This document shows, in pieces, positions 3,500 to 55,667 of a stretch of DNA of 64,000 nucleotides; position 1 is the first letter of the stretch, and each line of letters begins with the position of its first letter. The stretch lies in contig OZ245838.1 in the NCBI GenBank assembly GCA_965228735.1, positions 6,688,001-6,752,000 of the forward strand, written 5' to 3'. The position numbers and the translations under genes are program-made. A model generated the notes under the pieces. It was not told where the DNA came from, ran no database searches, and saw only the letters and a list, made by a program, of their open reading frames with translations. The DNA is from Planctomycetota bacterium. Its GTDB lineage: Bacteria; Planctomycetota; UBA1135; UBA2386.

Positions 3500-3564
3500 G
3501 AACCGGGTACCGTACGCCGGGTGCCGCGGGAGGGCACCGTACGGTACCGCGTTCGTTCTGCCGA
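3500..3564. repeat. Pair of REP-family copies in inverted orientation between convergent genes
   Basis: GAACCGGGTACCGTACGCCGGGT (3500-3522) matches 27908-27930 at 22/23. CCGTACGGTACCGCGTTCGTTCTGCCGA (3537-3564) matches 27678-27705 at 25/28. Confidence 0.85.
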
Positions 3565-19215: not shown

Positions 19216-19247
19216 CGGTACCGTACGGGCGCGGTACTGTACGGGCG
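19216..19247. repeat. Two tandem 16-bp REP cores between convergent genes
   Basis: CGGTACCGTACGGGCG followed by CGGTACTGTACGGGCG. Confidence 0.75.
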
Positions 19248-27672: not shown

Positions 27673-27756
27673 GGGCCCCGTACGGAACCTGGTTCGTTCT
27701 GCCGACGTCGTCAACCGGGCCCCGTACGGAACCTGGTTCGTTCTGCCGACGTCGTC
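27673..27756. repeat. Two identical 40-bp direct repeats (REP copies) upstream of the RAYT gene
   Basis: GGGCCCCGTACGGAACCTGGTTCGTTCTGCCGACGTCGTC at 27673-27712 and 27717-27756. Confidence 0.9.
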
Positions 27757-27907
27757 GACACTCCCGTCTGGGCTTTGTGTGCCCGGCTGAGTTCGAGGAC
27801 AACTTCCATGCTGCAGGAGCAGCGTAACCTGGCTGTCCACTCCGCCGGGGGAAGGTCAGGTTGATCGCGGGGAGAGAAGCGCGGCGCGGAGGTCGGCATG
27901 CCAGCAC

Positions 27908-27930
27908 GAACCGCGTACCGTACGCCGGGT
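27908..27930. repeat. REP copy immediately upstream of the RAYT gene
   Basis: GAACCGCGTACCGTACGCCGGGT. Confidence 0.8.
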
Positions 27931-27990
27931 CACGTCGGGATTTGCGTGTGATCTCAGGGTCTGCGTTCCACTTGGGGAGGAGGTGACCTC

Positions 27991-29019
27991 ATGGTGCGAA
28001 AGCCGCGAGCGGATGGGCCCGGCAAGTGGTTTCACGTGGTGAACCGAGGCGTTTCCCGGCGCTCGGTCTTCGAGAACAGGGCAGATGTAGAGTTCTTCCT
28101 GGACGGTGTTCGCGATGTCGTTGAGCGCGGTTGGCTCGAGGTGCACGCCTATGCGGTGCTGACGACCCACTATCACTTTCTCGTCCGCAGTCCGGCTGCG
28201 GAGCTGTCTCGGGCGATGCATCACGTTCAGCTGCGCTACGTCCGATACTTCAATAGGACCCGTCGGCGGGACGGGTCTCTGCTGCGCGGCCGGTTTGGCT
28301 CGAAGCACGTGGACTCGGTTCGCTACCGGCTTGCCGTCGTCGGCTACATCGACACCAACGCGCCCGCGGCGGGCCTCGCGCGGTGTGCGTCCGACTATCC
28401 GTTCGGTAGCGCAGCCGCATACCTGTCGGGTGGCGGTCCGGAATGGCTCTGCCGTGACTGGGTCCACGACGAACTCCGGCTCTGCACAGGCGAGGTCGCA
28501 CCGTCGGGAACAGCGTATGCAGATGTGTTCGCGCGTGGGTTCACGGATGCCCAGCGCGCGATCGTGGAGCGCCGGTTGGCGTTGCCGGACGCGGCGAATG
28601 ATCCGATCGACGAACTGATGCGGGGTGGAGCACTGGCGCTTCGCGAGTGGTTTCACAAGAAGGCCCTGCTGGCTGACGGCACCAAACCGGGACTTCCGAT
28701 CGCGGCACCCGAAGAGATCCAGCGAGCGCTGGCCGTCGAGTTGCCGGCAGCGATCGAGCCGGTCGTGAAGCACCTCCGGCAGGGCTCCGCCGATTGGCGC
28801 GCGGCGCTCACAGCGCTGCTTCTGCGTGAGGCATGCGGACTGACGCAGGCGGAGATTGGCGAGCGGCTCGGACGGTCGCGGGAGACCGCCAGGAGTCTGG
28901 TTGCCCGAGCGCGTCGGGTGGCGGCCGAGCACCCTGCGATCGGCGACTTCGCCGCGGCGGCTATCCATCGCGCGTTGGCTGCGACGTTCCCGCCACCAGG
29001 ACACACTTCGGCAGACTGA
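27991..29019 (+). mobile_element. REP-associated tyrosine transposase (RAYT; Y1/HUH, IS200-like) with C-terminal HTH
   Basis: FHVVNRG, AYAVLTTHYHFLV (HUH), RYFN...GRF, GYIDTN (catalytic Tyr position), DYPFGS; C-terminal LTQAEIGERLGRS HTH; strong SD GGAGGAGG; flanked by REPs. Confidence 0.9.
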
Positions 29020-29075
29020 ACCAGGTACCGTACGGCCAAGGTACCGTACGGCCACAGCCGGGTTCAGTACCGCCA
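29008..29075. repeat. REP cluster downstream of the RAYT gene, including a half-copy of the intron-target repeat
   Basis: TCGGCAGACTGAACCAGGTACCGTACGG is inverted relative to 27678-27705 (25/28). A second AGGTACCGTACGGCCA follows. GGGTTCAGTACCGCCA (29060-29075) matches 55649-55664 at 15/16. Confidence 0.85.
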
Positions 29076-29096: not shown

Positions 29097-30527
29097 TCAG
29101 GGGAGTTGGGTCAGGAGCGTCGTGTTGTCCGGGGTCTGGCGCAGGAGGTCGACGACGTGGTCGAGGCGTTGGCGTGAGGTGAGGGGGGCGAGGTGCTCGC
29201 GCAGGCGGCGGAGGGCCTGGATCTGGGATTCGGGGAGCAGGGTGTCTTCGCGGCGGGTGCCCGTGCGGAGGACGTCGAGGGCCGGGGCGACGTGTTGGTC
29301 GGCGAGGTCGCGGTCGAGGACGATGTCGCTGTTGCCGCGGTTGTGGAACTCGTCGAGGATCGCGGTGTCGAGGCGCGAGTCGGCGTCGGTGATCGCCGTC
29401 GCGATGAGCGTGAGGGAGCCGCCCTCTTCGCACTTGCGCGCCGCGCCGAACAGGCGTTTGGGCCGCAGCACGGCACCGGCGTCGAGGCCGACGCAGATGA
29501 GGCGGCCGGTCGGGATGATCTCGAGGTTGAGGGCGCGGACGTAGGCGGTCAGCGAGTCGAACAGCAGAACGACGTCCTCGCCCGCCTCGACCATGCGCTG
29601 GGCGCGCGCGAGCGTCATGTCGGCGAGCGCGACATGGCGCGCCGGCGGTTGCTCGAACGTCGTCGCGACGATGTCGGCGTCGCCGCTGCCCGCCGCGTGA
29701 ATGCGGCGCCGGATACCCGTCAGTTCCTCGGGCCGCTCGTCCAGCAGGCACATGTGGACGAACAGGTCCGGGTGATTGAGCCGCAGCGCCACGGCGATCT
29801 CCTCGAGCAATCGGGTGCGGCCGGAGCCGGGCGGCGCGGCGATGAGGACGCGCTGGCCGAGCCCCCAGGGCGCGAGCAGGTCGATCGCGCGCAGGGCCAG
29901 CGACGCGTTCTCGTGGTCCAGCCGCAGGCGGTCGGTCGGCAGGATCGGCGTGCGAGCGCCGAATGGCACGCGCCGGCGCTGCGTCGCGATGTCGCCGCCA
30001 TTGACCGAGTCGACGTGCAGCAGCGCGAAGAAGTTCTCACCCCGCCGCGGCGGCCGCACTGGGCCAGCCAGTCGATGCCCGCTCTTGAGGTTGAGGCGGC
30101 GCACCTGACTCGGGCTCACGTAGACGTCGTCGGGACCGGGCTCGAAGTCGTTGCGGATCGAACGCAAGAATCCGAAGCCGTCGGGGAGCACGTCGAGGAC
30201 GCCCTCGGCCCAGCCGAGTCCCGAGCGCTCGAAGCGGTGCTGCAGGATCGCGAACACGAGCTCGCTCTTGCCGAGGTTGGGAACGACGTCGAGGCCTTCG
30301 TCGTGCGCGAGGTCGAGCAGTTCTTTGGCGGAACGCGCCTGCAGCGCGGTGATGTCGCCGCCGTGGTCCCGCCGCGCCTGCTTCAGCAGTTCTTCGCGCT
30401 CCTCGGCGCTCATGGTCTCCAGGTCCGTCCCGTCGGATCGGCCAGCCGCCGGCTGCCCGTCGGCCTGCGGCCCGCTCGCACGGGACCCTTCTCGGCGCGG
30501 GGCGGGGTTGCGGGACGAGTCGTGCAC
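29097..30527 (-). CDS. rho: Transcription termination factor Rho, divergent copy
   Basis: EGVLDVLPDGFGFLRS, DDVYVSPSQVRR, DERPEE, LFDSLT and PKRLFGAARKCEEGGSLT motifs; Walker A reads APPGSGRT. Confidence 0.85.
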   Translation of the reverse strand: MHDSSRNPAPRREGSRASGPQADGQPAAGRSDGTDLETMSAEEREELLKQARRDHGGDITALQARSAKELLDLAHDEGLDVVPNLGKSELVFAILQHRFERSGLGWAEGVLDVLPDGFGFLRSIRNDFEPGPDDVYVSPSQVRRLNLKSGHRLAGPVRPPRRGENFFALLHVDSVNGGDIATQRRRVPFGARTPILPTDRLRLDHENASLALRAIDLLAPWGLGQRVLIAAPPGSGRTRLLEEIAVALRLNHPDLFVHMCLLDERPEELTGIRRRIHAAGSGDADIVATTFEQPPARHVALADMTLARAQRMVEAGEDVVLLFDSLTAYVRALNLEIIPTGRLICVGLDAGAVLRPKRLFGAARKCEEGGSLTLIATAITDADSRLDTAILDEFHNRGNSDIVLDRDLADQHVAPALDVLRTGTRREDTLLPESQIQALRRLREHLAPLTSRQRLDHVVDLLRQTPDNTTLLTQLP

Positions 30528-32738: not shown

Positions 32739-32773
32739 AGAACGGCCGCTCCCGCAAGGGGGCGGCCGTTCTT
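32739..32773 (+). terminator. GC-rich hairpin with GCAA tetraloop; probable terminator
   Basis: AGAACGGCCGCTCCC-GCAA-GGGGGCGGCCGTTCT(T), about 40 nt after the stop codon. Confidence 0.7.
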
Positions 32774-32832
32774 GCGTACGGTACGCGGTTCAAACTGCCG
32801 GACTCCGGCAGTTTGAACCGCGTACCGTACGC
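32774..32832. repeat. Perfect 59-bp palindrome (REPIN-like doublet)
   Basis: 29-bp arms GCGTACGGTACGCGGTTCAAACTGCCGGA and its exact reverse complement around a single C. Confidence 0.92.
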
Positions 32833-32846
32833 TAGAGTCTGGCGGA

Positions 32847-48961: not shown

Positions 48962-49708
48962 GTGGCTGCCGCGTCCTCCACGACCGTCTCGCCGCCGCGC
49001 ACCCTGAAGCGCATCCTCCTCAAGCTCAGCGGGGAGAGCCTCGGTGACGAGGGCGGCGGGGTCTCGCCCCCGGTCGTGGCGCAGGTCGCCCGGCAGATCG
49101 CGGGCGTACAGCGGCTCGGCGTCGAGGTCGCGGTCGTCGTCGGCGGCGGCAATCTGCTCCGCGGCGCCGAGTTCGCCAAGCAGGGCACCAACCGCGCGAC
49201 GGCCGACCAGATGGGCATGCTCGCGACGGCGATCAACGCGCTCGCGCTGCAGGACGGCCTCGAGCGCGAGGGCGTCGAGACGCGTTCGGCGAGCGCGGTC
49301 GAGATGAAGACGCTGATGGAGCCCTACATCCGCCGCCGCGTGGTGCGCCACCTCGAGAAGGGCCGCGCCGTGATCCTCGCGGGCGGCACGGGCAATCCGT
49401 ACTTCACGACGGACACGGCCGCGGCGCTGCGCGCGACCGAGCTCGGCGCCGATGCGATCTTCAAGGCGACCAAGGTCGACGGCGTCTACAGCGCCGATCC
49501 CAACGTCGACCCGAACGCCAAGCGCTTCGAGCGCCTCACGTTCCAGGATGCGCTGCAGCAGGACCTCAAGGTCATGGATCGCACGGCGTTCACCCTCTGC
49601 ATGGAGAACGGCATGCCGATCATGGTGTTCGACATGTTCGTCGAGGGCAACATGGAGCGCGCGGTGCGCGGCGACTCGATCGGCACCTGGGTCCTCATGC
49701 CGCAGTAG
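48962..49708 (+). CDS. pyrH: UMP kinase
   Basis: LLKLSGE, GGGN, ADQMGMLAT and GNPYFTTD motifs. Confidence 0.97.
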   Translation: MAAASSTTVSPPRTLKRILLKLSGESLGDEGGGVSPPVVAQVARQIAGVQRLGVEVAVVVGGGNLLRGAEFAKQGTNRATADQMGMLATAINALALQDGLEREGVETRSASAVEMKTLMEPYIRRRVVRHLEKGRAVILAGGTGNPYFTTDTAAALRATELGADAIFKATKVDGVYSADPNVDPNAKRFERLTFQDALQQDLKVMDRTAFTLCMENGMPIMVFDMFVEGNMERAVRGDSIGTWVLMPQ

Positions 49709-49802
49709 CGCCCGTACGGTACCTGGTTCGATCTGCAAGGCCGCCGCGCCTCAGCGCGGCGGCCTTGCAGATCGAACCAGGTACCGTACGGGCGCTACTG
49801 CG
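49701..49802. repeat. Perfect 49-bp inverted repeat with 4-nt loop (REPIN-like), overlapping the pyrH stop codon
   Basis: CGCAGTAGCGCCCGTACGGTACCTGGTTCGATCTGCAAGGCCGCCGCGC-CTCA-exact reverse complement. Confidence 0.93.
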
Positions 49803-53546: not shown

Positions 53547-53573
53547 GCGCGGCGTGGTGGCGGTACCGAACCC

Positions 53574-55565
53574 TTGCGCCAGGCGAAGCCTGGACGGGAG
53601 AAATCATGACCTGACAGGAATGAGAACCCCGTATTGGAGTCCCGCGGGTGACGAAACCCGCCCGGCGAAGGCTAGCCACCAGCCGGAAGCGAGTCTTGCG
53701 TGGCGACCGGGTAACCGCCGCTGCGAAGCGTAGACAGCGAGGATGTGGGCGGCGCGACTGAGCCCCGAAAGTACCGACAGCGAGAGAGCCGACGTGGTGG
53801 GTTCATCGGAAGGCAACATGGAAGGGCCGCAACCGGCTTGGCCCGGAAGTCTCTCCGGGGTCCTGAGAACGACCGCACGCATCCATCGGACTCCCCAGGA
53901 ACCTGGGATCCCCTCGATTGGTCCGATCGTCAACTCCGGCTGGGGCCCGGAAACCAACTCTCCAGGGCCGCGACGTCGTGTCCGCGTCGGTGCCGTCAAG
54001 GAATCCGGACACACGGCCGGTACCGCCGAGCGAAGGAAACGAAGCGACGCGGGACGCCAACGAGGGAGTCGGAGTGCGTCATAGTACCAAAGAGTCCGGG
54101 GAACCCGCCCCACGGGGACCCGGCGGAGGGAAGGGCGTCACCGGCGACAAGGAACCGCTGGACGGACCGACCACGGAGACGACGGGCTCCGAGCAGGTCT
54201 CCACGAAACTCCGGCGGGTAGCGGAGCTGGCGAGGCAGCGACCAGACCTGGTCCTGACCACACTGGCACACCACATGGACATCGCGCTTCTGCGGGAGGC
54301 GTATCGCCGCACGCAGAAGTCCAAAGCTCCTGGTGTCGACGGCGTCACGGCTCGCGACTACGAGCAGGATCTCGAGGGCAACCTCGCGGACCTGCACGAA
54401 CGCGCGAAGTCAGGGCGCTATCGCGCACCACCGGTCCGGCGCGTGCACATCCCGAAAGGGAAGGGTGGCACGCGTCCAATCGGAGTGCCGACGCTGGAGG
54501 ACAAGGTCTTGCAGCGGGCGGTGACGCAAGTGATGGAGGCGGTATATGAGCAGGACTTCTTGGACTGCTCGCACGGCTTCCGTCCCGGTCGCTCGCCGCA
54601 CACGGCACTGGAATCGCTTTGGAAGCATGCGATGTCGATGGGTGGCGGCTGGCTGTTGGAAGTCGACATCCAAGGTTTCTTCGACAACCTGGAGCCGACC
54701 CATCTGCGAGCGATCCTCGACCAGCGGGTGCGCGACGGAGTGTTCCGTCGACTGATCGACAAGTGGCTGAAGGCGGGGGTGCAGGAGGACGGTGCGCTGC
54801 ATCGCTCTCGCAAAGGCACCCCACAAGGAGGCGTGATTTCGCCGCTGCTGGCGAACATCTATTTGCACGCAGTGCTGGACCGTTGGTTTGTCGAGGAAGT
54901 CAAGCCGAGGCTTGCCGGTCGCGCGGAGTTGGTCCGCTATGCGGACGACTTCGTGATCCTGTTTGCCGTCGAAGCCGATGCACGTGCGATGTCGTCGATC
55001 CTGGCCCAAAGGCTCGGGCGCTTCGGCCTCACACTGCATCCGGACAAGACCCGGTTAGTCCGCTTCCAACCGCCCGAAGACGGCGCGGCGGGGAGCGGCA
55101 CTTTCGACTTCCTGGGCTTCACCCATCACTGGTCACGCTCCCGGCGCGGCCGATGGACCGTGCAGCGGCGCACCACACGACACGTCGTGACCCGTACCCT
55201 GACTGGGCTACGGGATTGGTGCCGTCGCAATCGGCACGACAAGGTCCGCGTCCAGTACTCCACCCTGTGCTCGAAGCTACGGGGGCACTACCTCTACTTC
55301 GGCGTGACCGGCAACTCTGCTGCGTTACGTCGCGTATGGTACGAGGCCCGTCGCATCTGGCATCGGTGGCTGAGCCGGCGCTCGCGGGCGGCCTACATGT
55401 CGTGGGCCCGCTTCGAGCAACTGCTGCGTGCATACCCGCTTCCTCCGCCCCGGCTGACCCGGTCGGTCTACGCAGCGAGCCCTTGTCGCTGACGAGCCGG
55501 ATGCGTTAGCCGCGCACGTCCGGATCTGTGGGAGCCCTGGGGGGAGACCCCCAGGGCCACCCGGC
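53574..55565 (+). mobile_element. Full-length group II intron (1992 nt, IIB-like)
   Basis: 5' end TTGCG. Domain V GAGCCGGATGCG...CACGTCCGGATC (55494-55526). Domain VI with bulged A at 55559, 7 nt from the end. EBS2 GTACCG (53771-53776) and EBS1 GGGTTC (53799-53804). Boundaries are fixed by the interrupted repeat. Confidence 0.93.
54275..55492 (+). CDS. ltrA: Group II intron reverse transcriptase/maturase without endonuclease domain; true start may lie about 100 nt upstream
   Basis: KAPGVDG, RPIGVPTLEDK, SHGFRPGRS, GTPQGGVISPLLANIYLH, RYADDF (54938-54949), FDFLGF and LRGHYLYFG (domain X). Confidence 0.93.
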   Translation: MDIALLREAYRRTQKSKAPGVDGVTARDYEQDLEGNLADLHERAKSGRYRAPPVRRVHIPKGKGGTRPIGVPTLEDKVLQRAVTQVMEAVYEQDFLDCSHGFRPGRSPHTALESLWKHAMSMGGGWLLEVDIQGFFDNLEPTHLRAILDQRVRDGVFRRLIDKWLKAGVQEDGALHRSRKGTPQGGVISPLLANIYLHAVLDRWFVEEVKPRLAGRAELVRYADDFVILFAVEADARAMSSILAQRLGRFGLTLHPDKTRLVRFQPPEDGAAGSGTFDFLGFTHHWSRSRRGRWTVQRRTTRHVVTRTLTGLRDWCRRNRHDKVRVQYSTLCSKLRGHYLYFGVTGNSAALRRVWYEARRIWHRWLSRRSRAAYMSWARFEQLLRAYPLPPPRLTRSVYAASPCR

Positions 55566-55667
55566 GCTTCGAATCCGCCACCCGTCCGATTCCGCAACCC
55601 CGGTTCCCACCTGCCGTGCCGCCGTGTGGCAGGTGGCGGATTCGAAGCGGGTTCGGTACCGCCAGCC

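What the first reader, a model, noticed from the sequence alone, without database searches (positions are those of the whole stretch)
27673..29075. RAYT-HTH transposase bracketed by inverted REP copies, with a dispersed GGTACCGTACG repeat family
Seen: an HUH/Y1 gene with a C-terminal HTH is flanked by 28-bp inverted copies (27678-27705 and 27722-27749 versus 29008-29035). The same core recurs at 3500-3564, 19216-19247, 27908-27930, 32774-32832 and 49701-49802, always intergenic or at gene ends. Known: RAYT/REP systems are characterised mostly in Proteobacteria (GTAG and CGTC families). Inference: a distinct, probably little-described planctomycete REP family of consensus GAACC(A/G)(G/C)GTACCGTACG, maintained by this enzyme.
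Basis: partly seen in the sequence, partly recalled or inferred. Interest (0 to 1): 0.7.

Follow-up and report, generated by a model that had tools for sequence, protein, structure and literature searches.

The report
HTH tyrosine transposase with own repeats
A single-copy DNA-nicking enzyme gene in a planctomycete is bracketed by a short inverted repeat that is also scattered about 200 times between genes, and related bacteria carrying this enzyme type each have their own bracket sequence multiplied, so this supposedly repeat-free enzyme group likely spreads small non-coding elements.

Summary
Gene 27991-29019 encodes a single-copy 342-aa HUH/Y1 nuclease with a C-terminal HTH, bracketed by 28-bp inverted arms (25/28 identical). 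It belongs to RAYT Group 1 / subclass 2.1 (TIRYT), not the classical REP-binding groups: the arms have no GTAG and no hairpin of their own. The arm occurs 195 times in the genome (control 0), between genes, often as inverted doublets. All 11 genomes (of 41) with a full-length gene of this clade have a flanking-repeat sequence of their own amplified 39-228-fold. Of 30 non-carriers, 29 lack doublets under a clade-wide pattern, and a same-genus non-carrier lacks every arm tested. This extends Di Nocera's TIRtrons and conflicts with the printed claim that only Groups 2 and 3 have REPINs. Binding and cleavage are untested, and no excision was seen. The scan noted similar TIRYT loci on other DNA before. 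Verdict: new variant of a known kind.

The parts
27991..29019 (+). TIRYT / RAYT Group 1 (subclass 2.1) gene, 342 aa: HUH (H60, H62), catalytic Y119 with N123, helical linker, C-terminal HTH
   Evidence: single copy in the genome
27678..27705 (+). Outer upstream family A arm (tip outward); first unit of a 44-bp tandem duplication
27722..27749 (+). Second upstream family A arm; forms an inverted doublet of about 200 bp with the arm at 27896-27925
27896..27925 (-). Inner family A arm (GAACCGCG variant) closing the upstream doublet, about 65 bp before the start codon
29008..29035 (-). Downstream family A arm, overlapping the TGA stop codon
29036..29052 (-). Tandem duplication of the arm's outer tip; seen at 28 of 182 family A arms
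29060..29075 (-). Half-arm of sister family B
3500..3564 (.). Two family A arms tip-to-tip between convergent genes
19216..19247 (.). Two degenerate family A tips between convergent genes
32770..32836 (.). Family A inverted doublet (33-nt arms, 97% complementary)
49701..49802 (.). Family A inverted doublet (49-nt arms, 100% complementary; the inverted match extends into locus-specific flanks)
53558..55664 (.). Family B doublet (115 bp when empty) interrupted in its left arm by a group II intron
53574..55565 (+). 1992-bp group II intron with reverse-transcriptase ORF (53918-55492); predicted EBS1 at 53799-53804 is complementary to the last 6 nt of the 5' exon in the family B arm

Best explanation
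The locus is a TIRtron: a single-copy Group 1 / subclass 2.1 HUH-tyrosine nuclease gene with a C-terminal HTH between inverted arms, and the enzyme likely recognises those arms and likely spreads the non-coding inverted doublets built from them. Shown: intact catalytic residues; flanking arms starting RTAC[GC]G[AT][AG][CT]C across the clade; amplification of the gene's own arm in each carrier genome; intergenic and convergent placement; no target-site duplication; no hairpin within one family A arm. Inferred: on single-stranded DNA (for example at the lagging strand) the two arms of a doublet pair into one long stem; the HTH reads this double-stranded stem, or the arm in duplex DNA; the HUH/Y119 centre nicks and rejoins near the conserved outer tip, as in IS608 and E. 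coli RayT peel-and-paste chemistry. Imprecise joining or template switching at the stem foot would give the tip duplications and the inverted flank extensions. Family B carries the same tip motif and is likely the population of a lost paralogue, or a second substrate.
For: Protein: Y1 and HTH domains; best structural match is E. coli RayT 4ER8, E 6e-5. H60, H62, Y119 and N123 are invariant in 50 of 50 clade proteins with a scored TIR. The tree puts it with NHxH / FQGR / YxxxNP proteins bearing GGGGTCAG-type TIRs, apart from E. coli RayT (split 99/97). Flanks: inverted repeats in 63 of 77 testable loci against 2 of 77 shuffled controls. Counts of a genome's own flanking arm, backward controls 0-2: G000 195, G013 103 and 119 (two paralogues, two families), G003 62, G002 39, G028 103, G011 139, G033 113, G021 82, G020 60, G022 228, G014 69. 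Same-genus G001 has no gene and 0-4 hits per pattern, at control level, and 0 doublets. The clade-wide doublet pattern gives 14-107 doublets in 7 of 11 carriers and 0-5 in 29 of 30 non-carriers. All 101 family A loci lie outside predicted genes; 49 of 101 lie between convergent genes against 12% of gaps. No direct target duplication above background.
Against: There is no biochemical or expression evidence. No empty site or excision was seen: in a strain about 97% identical, contigs reach into the repeats at the same places (contigs break there, so this is weak). G036 has 30 doublets but no full-length clade gene in its fragmented assembly (89% complete). Family B (120 arms) has no gene of its own in G000, yet its arms are 94.5% identical to consensus. 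Four carriers (G002, G014, G020, G021) give 0-1 doublets with the clade-wide pattern because their arms deviate from it, so that pattern can also miss repeats in non-carriers. I designed the per-genome patterns from each TIR with differing degeneracy and mismatch limits, the G022 and G021 counts include both-strand matches at one site, and not every paralogue's TIR was tested. Genomes are related, so they are not independent.
Confidence: 0.72

Rival explanations
1. The arms are mainly host-selected sites (terminator-like or RNA-stabilising hairpins at convergent gene ends, or binding sites for the protein acting as a domesticated DNA-binding factor). They spread long ago and are now kept by selection or gene conversion rather than by ongoing transposition.
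For: Strong bias to convergent gene ends (49 of 101 A loci, 44 of 80 B loci, against 12%). Elements sit at the same places in a strain about 97% identical. The 43 intron-free family B doublets have no sister spacers (nearest neighbour mean 56%, maximum 63%) while arms are 94.5% conserved.
Against: It does not explain why a different arm, each time the one flanking the resident gene, is amplified in each of 11 genomes, nor why two paralogues in G013 each have a family. Family A subfamilies do have sister spacers (nearest neighbour up to 94-97%), which fits recent copying. The catalytic residues are invariant.
Confidence: 0.17
2. The TIRtron is an IS-like mobile element and the doublets are its short-lived MITE derivatives (internal deletions) rather than a persistent REPIN population.
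For: The cassette lies at different loci in different genera and is inverted between G000 and G002 at the same GT2-Rho junction. It is absent there in G001, G013 and G017. The enzyme is 48% identical between G000 and G002 while the neighbouring GT2 is 71-73%. Group 1 has the highest duplication rate among true RAYT groups (PMC5581495, passages).
Against: It is single copy in G000, paralogues in other genomes are diverged, and no clade member was found on plasmids (best hits under 40% identity over at most 56% of the query). Spacers are deeply diverged. The two readings share the enzyme and differ only in time scale.
Confidence: 0.08
3. Another enzyme spreads the repeats and the gene is flanked by them only because they accumulate in any intergenic gap.
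For: G036 has repeats without a detected gene; family B has no gene of its own.
Against: Arms abut the start region and the stop codon in inverted orientation in 63 of 77 loci; no other Y1 protein was found in G000; the arm tip motif is conserved across the protein clade.
Confidence: 0.03

Closest known systems
TIRtron / TIRYT (Di Nocera et al. 2013, PMC3733652; section 'REPs and tyrosine transposases' and passages read)
   Same: Y1 transposase gene between terminal inverted repeats that are not GTAG REPs; some TIRs form moderately abundant families organised as dimers or clusters.
   Different: The tip motif here is RTAC[GC]G[AT][AG][CT]C rather than GGGGWSAS, although two carriers of the clade (G020, G021) have GGGGTCAG-like arms. 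Amplification was seen in all 11 carriers tested rather than in some species. Figure 9 and the supplements, which hold the TIR sequences and counts, were not seen.
TnpA-Y1 subclass 2.1 (2.1.2), equal to RAYT Group 1 (Quentin et al. 2018, PMC6006769, parts 1-6 of 10 read; Bertels et al. 2017, PMC5581495, passages)
   Same: HYH/HFH motif, Y-x-x-x-N, conserved serine after the core, C-terminal HTH, low copy number.
   Different: Quentin found no REP-like sequences beside 2.1 genes, and Bertels gives a mean of 12 genome-wide copies for the commonest flanking 16-mer in Group 1; here it is 45 upstream and 55 downstream. The protein is longer (342 aa against a median of 238) and has THxH and YIDxN[AP] variants.
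REPIN-RAYT systems of Groups 2 and 3 (Bertels and Rainey, PMC3337134 part 1 of 3 read; bioRxiv 10.1101/2021.07.10.451892 passages; Corneloup et al. 2021, PMC8266576 passages)
   Same: Single-copy Y1 enzyme; extragenic inverted doublets of about 90-115 bp with preferred spacings, conserved arms and variable spacers; one repeat family per paralogue.
   Different: No GTAG guide; family A arms are not palindromic hairpins; the enzyme has an HTH and lies in another clade. The 2022 preprint states that only Groups 2 and 3 are associated with REPINs.
REP-targeting insertion sequences (PMC1525189, search listing only)
   Same: A mobile element uses the dispersed repeat as its insertion site.
   Different: Here the element is a group II intron with an EBS1 predicted to pair with the family B arm. 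Searches listed no paper on a group II intron homing to REP or TIR repeats.

Membership tests
TnpA-Y1 subclass 2.1 / RAYT Group 1 / TIRYT | HUH plus catalytic Tyr with class 2 signature Y-x-x-x-N(P) | tested here: met
   THYH (H60, H62) and Y119-IDT-N123-A; the proline is replaced by alanine in this protein but present in most clade members
TnpA-Y1 subclass 2.1 / RAYT Group 1 / TIRYT | C-terminal HTH extension | tested here: met
   Pfam Sigma70_r4_2 above cut-off, HTH_23 E 8e-4; helices 266-332 in the model, mean pLDDT 85
TnpA-Y1 subclass 2.1 / RAYT Group 1 / TIRYT | Gene flanked by terminal inverted repeats, not GTAG REPs | tested here: met
   25 of 28 inverted match; 63 of 77 clade loci
TnpA-Y1 subclass 2.1 / RAYT Group 1 / TIRYT | Clusters with subclass 2.1 sequences | tested here: inconclusive
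   Groups at 99/97 with proteins that I assigned to 2.1 by Table 1 motifs and GGGGTCAG-type TIRs, apart from E. coli RayT. The authors' own reference set was not used, the root is the midpoint and only 30 rows were used.
TnpA-Y1 subclass 2.1 / RAYT Group 1 / TIRYT | GGGGWSAS motif in the TIR (most, not all, published TIRs) | tested here: not met
   G000 arms begin GTACGG[AT]ACC; the motif is present in clade members G021 and (as GGAGTCAG) G020. It is not universal in the original description.
Classical RAYT/REP (Groups 2 and 3) | 5' GT[AG]G tetranucleotide at the foot of the arm | tested here: not met
   Arm tips read GTAC or RTAC
Classical RAYT/REP (Groups 2 and 3) | Each arm is itself a palindromic hairpin | tested here: not met
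   Family A arms flanking the gene: z -0.1 to +0.7; four E. coli REPs beside rayT z -1.7 to -2.3 (a fifth GTAGG match did not fold); one family B arm does fold, z about -3.5 (mononucleotide shuffles)
Classical RAYT/REP (Groups 2 and 3) | NCBIfam NF047646 above cut-off | tested here: not met
   49 bits against a cut-off of 80
REPIN-like population (works like) | High-copy extragenic inverted doublets under 130 bp apart with preferred spacing | tested here: met
   62 family A doublets (modes 63, 73, 79) and 47 family B doublets (43 at exactly 99); 107 doublets by one pattern
REPIN-like population (works like) | Repeat family matches the flanks of a single-copy cognate enzyme | tested here: met
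   11 of 11 carriers
REPIN-like population (works like) | Excision or insertion of doublets observed | tested here: inconclusive
   Only contigs were available; no empty site seen in two stretches
REPIN-like population (works like) | Cognate enzyme binds and cleaves the repeat | not testable with these tools
   Needs purified protein
IS200/IS605 | About 150-aa TnpA with Y-x-x-x-Q, multiple near-identical copies, subterminal hairpins | tested here: not met
   342 aa, YxxxN, one copy

The most novel reading that the evidence does not exclude
A Planctomycetota clade of Group 1 HTH-bearing RAYTs runs a separately evolved, persistent REPIN system in which the substrate is the long stem formed by two non-palindromic arms, read by the HTH, with no GTAG guide. 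The populations are old and stable enough that a group II intron has specialised on one of them, and the fixed-length, near-random family B spacers reflect active spacer diversification or host selection on geometry rather than drift.
Probability: 0.35. Interest if true: 0.7.

Novelty: new variant of a known kind. Interest (0 to 1): 0.47.

Why it matters
Group 1 / subclass 2.1 is the largest RAYT group, and none of the papers I read reports a substrate or biochemistry for it; recent work treats it as not associated with REPINs. This clade supplies at least 11 matched enzyme-repeat pairs with different arm sequences. That makes the open question of what these enzymes cut and what their HTH reads directly testable with cognate and non-cognate swaps. 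It also gives a case of a group II intron that appears to home to a dispersed repeat. The general architecture is already in print as the TIRtron, which limits the surprise.

Tried and rejected
(1) Paralogues in G000: none by tblastn or family search. The Pfam genome search also missed the known gene, so it is insensitive. (2) Family B spacers as captured genomic DNA: in the part of the output I could see (it was cut), blastn-short gave only chance-level matches of about 14-26 nt elsewhere in G000; foreign sources were not searched. (3) Target-site duplication: at most 3 of 62 or 3 of 47 at any offset and length tried. (4) First clade-wide single-arm pattern: it missed families A and B and was informative mainly for G028. 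(5) Presence/absence or inversion in reads: only contigs were available and they break at the repeats; one related strain differs by short deletions upstream of the gene and at the tip duplication. No RNA holder listed. (6) Protein-TIR similarity correlates (Mantel r 0.11-0.38, highest for the HTH region), but shared descent explains this, so it is not used as evidence of co-evolution. (7) Classical REP and IS200 readings were rejected (membership table). (8) Literature searches for Planctomycetota with RAYT or TIRtron listed no description of this clade; subscription journals and the supplements of Di Nocera and Quentin were not seen and may list such TIRs.

Full report
Observation. The window holds ORF 27991-29019(+), 342 aa, between a GT2 glycosyltransferase gene and a convergent rho-like gene. 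Arms at 27678-27705 and 27722-27749 are identical, and match the reverse complement of 29008-29035 at 25 of 28 positions; the downstream arm overlaps the stop codon. The core occurs 18 times in the window against 1.9 expected and 110 times in the 7.19-Mb genome against 1.3.

The protein. It has an N-terminal Y1 domain and a C-terminal sigma70-r4-like HTH, and scores 49 bits against the RAYT model NF047646, below the cut-off of 80. The predicted model (mean pLDDT 85) matches E. coli RayT 4ER8 best, then IS608 and ISDra2 TnpA. It is single copy in the genome. Its motifs (THYH, RGRF, YIDTN, FGSA, HTH) fit subclass 2.1 in Table 1 of Quentin et al.. A 30-row core-domain tree places it with NHxH / YxxxNP proteins that carry GGGGTCAG-type TIRs and apart from E. 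coli RayT (split 99/97; the clade itself 92/81; midpoint root). Quentin equates subclass 2.1 with Bertels' Group 1 and probably with Di Nocera's TIRYT.

The flanks. I gave one script 81 loci (the own locus and the 80); 4 were dropped for short flanks. Of the other 77, 63 have an inverted repeat joining the upstream region to the region around the stop codon, against 2 of 77 for the best of 20 shuffles. In 52 of the 63 the arm matched a loose RTAC[GC]G[AT][AG][CT]C tip pattern; most of the remaining 11 show near variants. The repeat is therefore the gene's terminal inverted repeat, read with the GTAC tip outward.

Family A in G000. There are 195 arms with up to 1 mismatch and 0 in the backward control. 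At up to 2 mismatches to one 16-mer, 182 arms fall in 101 loci and form 62 tip-outward inverted doublets, with start-to-start modes at 63, 73 and 79. With a crude codon-based gene finder of my own (5171 genes, 85% coding; it misses this gene and the intron ORF), 101 of 101 loci are outside genes and 49 lie between convergent genes, against 12% of gaps. The single arms beside the gene do not fold better than shuffles (z about 0), whereas four E. coli REPs beside rayT do. The two arms of one doublet resemble each other more than arms of different doublets (0.47 against 1.21 mismatches), and the inverted match runs 6 or more bases past the 16-mer in 18% of doublets against 1% for mismatched pairs. 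There is no direct target duplication. A tandem copy of the outer tip follows 28 of 182 arms.

Comparative test. Among 41 genomes (own plus 40 relatives), 11 have a full-length clade gene (over 200 bits). In each, a pattern taken from a gene's own flank finds 39-228 copies with controls of 0-2: G000 195, G013 103 and G003 62, G028 103, G002 39, G011 139, G033 113, G021 82 and G020 60, G013 second paralogue 119, G022 228, G014 69. The family A pattern gives 0-5 hits in the other 38 genomes. A clade-wide doublet pattern gives 14-107 doublets in 7 of 11 carriers, 0-1 in the 4 carriers with deviant arms, and 0-5 in 29 of 30 non-carriers. The exception, G036 (30 doublets), is a 460-contig, 89% complete genome of the same genus as carrier G028. 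Caveats: patterns were hand-made, some counts include both strands of one site, G040's split gene and several paralogues were not tested, and kin are not independent.

Locus history. Same-genus G002 has the cassette at the same GT2-rho junction but inverted, with its own variant arm. G001, G013 and G017 lack it there, and G001 has about 0.5 kb of other sequence. Inversion between the arms and independent insertion both fit.

A second family has 120 arms in G000 and 0-1 in each of the 40 relatives. Its 32-nt arm contains the same tip motif, resembles the TIR of a G013 paralogue and folds on its own. Of 47 doublets, 43 are exactly 115 bp with a 51-nt spacer. Arms are 94.5% identical to consensus, but spacers average 43% pairwise (34% when shuffled) and the closest pair is 63%; family A subfamilies have sister spacers up to 94-97%. 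A 1992-bp group II intron (Rfam RF02005, 123.5 bits) occurs in 8 intact and 2 interrupted copies, 99.4-100% identical, all at the same position of a family B arm. The only 6-nt complement of the 5' exon end in the first 500 nt lies in the loop where EBS1 is expected. Two intron copies share an identical spacer but differ right outside the arms, which fits either copying of the whole doublet or gene conversion.

Mechanism. Established for relatives: HUH Y1 enzymes nick and rejoin single-stranded DNA through a phosphotyrosine, guided by DNA structure (PMC6006769, PMC8266576). Inferred here: because one family A arm has no hairpin, the recognised structure is likely the stem formed by both arms or the arm in duplex form, bound by the HTH, with cutting near the conserved tip. 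This would account for fixed spacings, the lack of target duplications, tip duplications and arm concordance. None of it is shown biochemically. Rivals are host-selected, now immobile hairpins, and ordinary MITE-like derivatives of a mobile TIRtron.

Novelty. Di Nocera et al. 2013 already described TIRtrons and said some TIRs form moderately abundant families in dimers or clusters. Quentin 2018 found no REP-like flanks for subclass 2.1, and Bertels and Rainey state that only Groups 2 and 3 are associated with REPINs. The finding is thus a new variant: a Planctomycetota clade in which TIR amplification into REPIN-like doublets is the rule among those tested. My searches listed no description of this clade, and none of a repeat-homing group II intron; figures, supplements and closed journals were not seen. 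Earlier notes of this scan describe similar TIRYT loci on other DNA; they agree with my reading but are not independent support.

Noticed in passing
window 53574-55565: Group II intron with 10 near-identical genomic copies, all in the same position of a family B arm; predicted EBS1 pairs with the arm. Two copies are interrupted by another insertion.
   Followed up: partly
window 53558-53573 with 55566-55664; genome-wide: Family B doublets: invariant 115-bp length, conserved arms, near-random 51-nt spacers with a weak GCAAC motif about 12 nt inside each arm; no gene of their own in G000. Unexplained.
   Followed up: partly
G000:C1:6118565-6118693: A family A doublet nested symmetrically between two family B half-arms; 10 of 101 A loci have a B arm within 150 nt.
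   Followed up: no
G000:C1:6838625-6840731 and 1603914-1606020: Two intron-bearing family B elements share an identical spacer but have different outer flanks: whole-element copying or gene conversion.
   Followed up: partly
L008 (G022): A clade gene flanked on both sides by inverted copies of one long repeat that looks like the 3' end of an IS110-type transposase gene (by eye, not tested), inserted at the TIRs.
   Followed up: no
L116 (G001), between the GT2 and rho genes: About 0.5 kb of other sequence, with a possible short Cys-rich ORF, at the place where G000 and G002 carry the cassette.
   Followed up: no
window 29097-30527 (-): Rho-like gene whose Walker A region reads GSGRT rather than the usual GK-type motif (usual motif recalled); conserved in relatives at 43-77% identity.
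   Followed up: no
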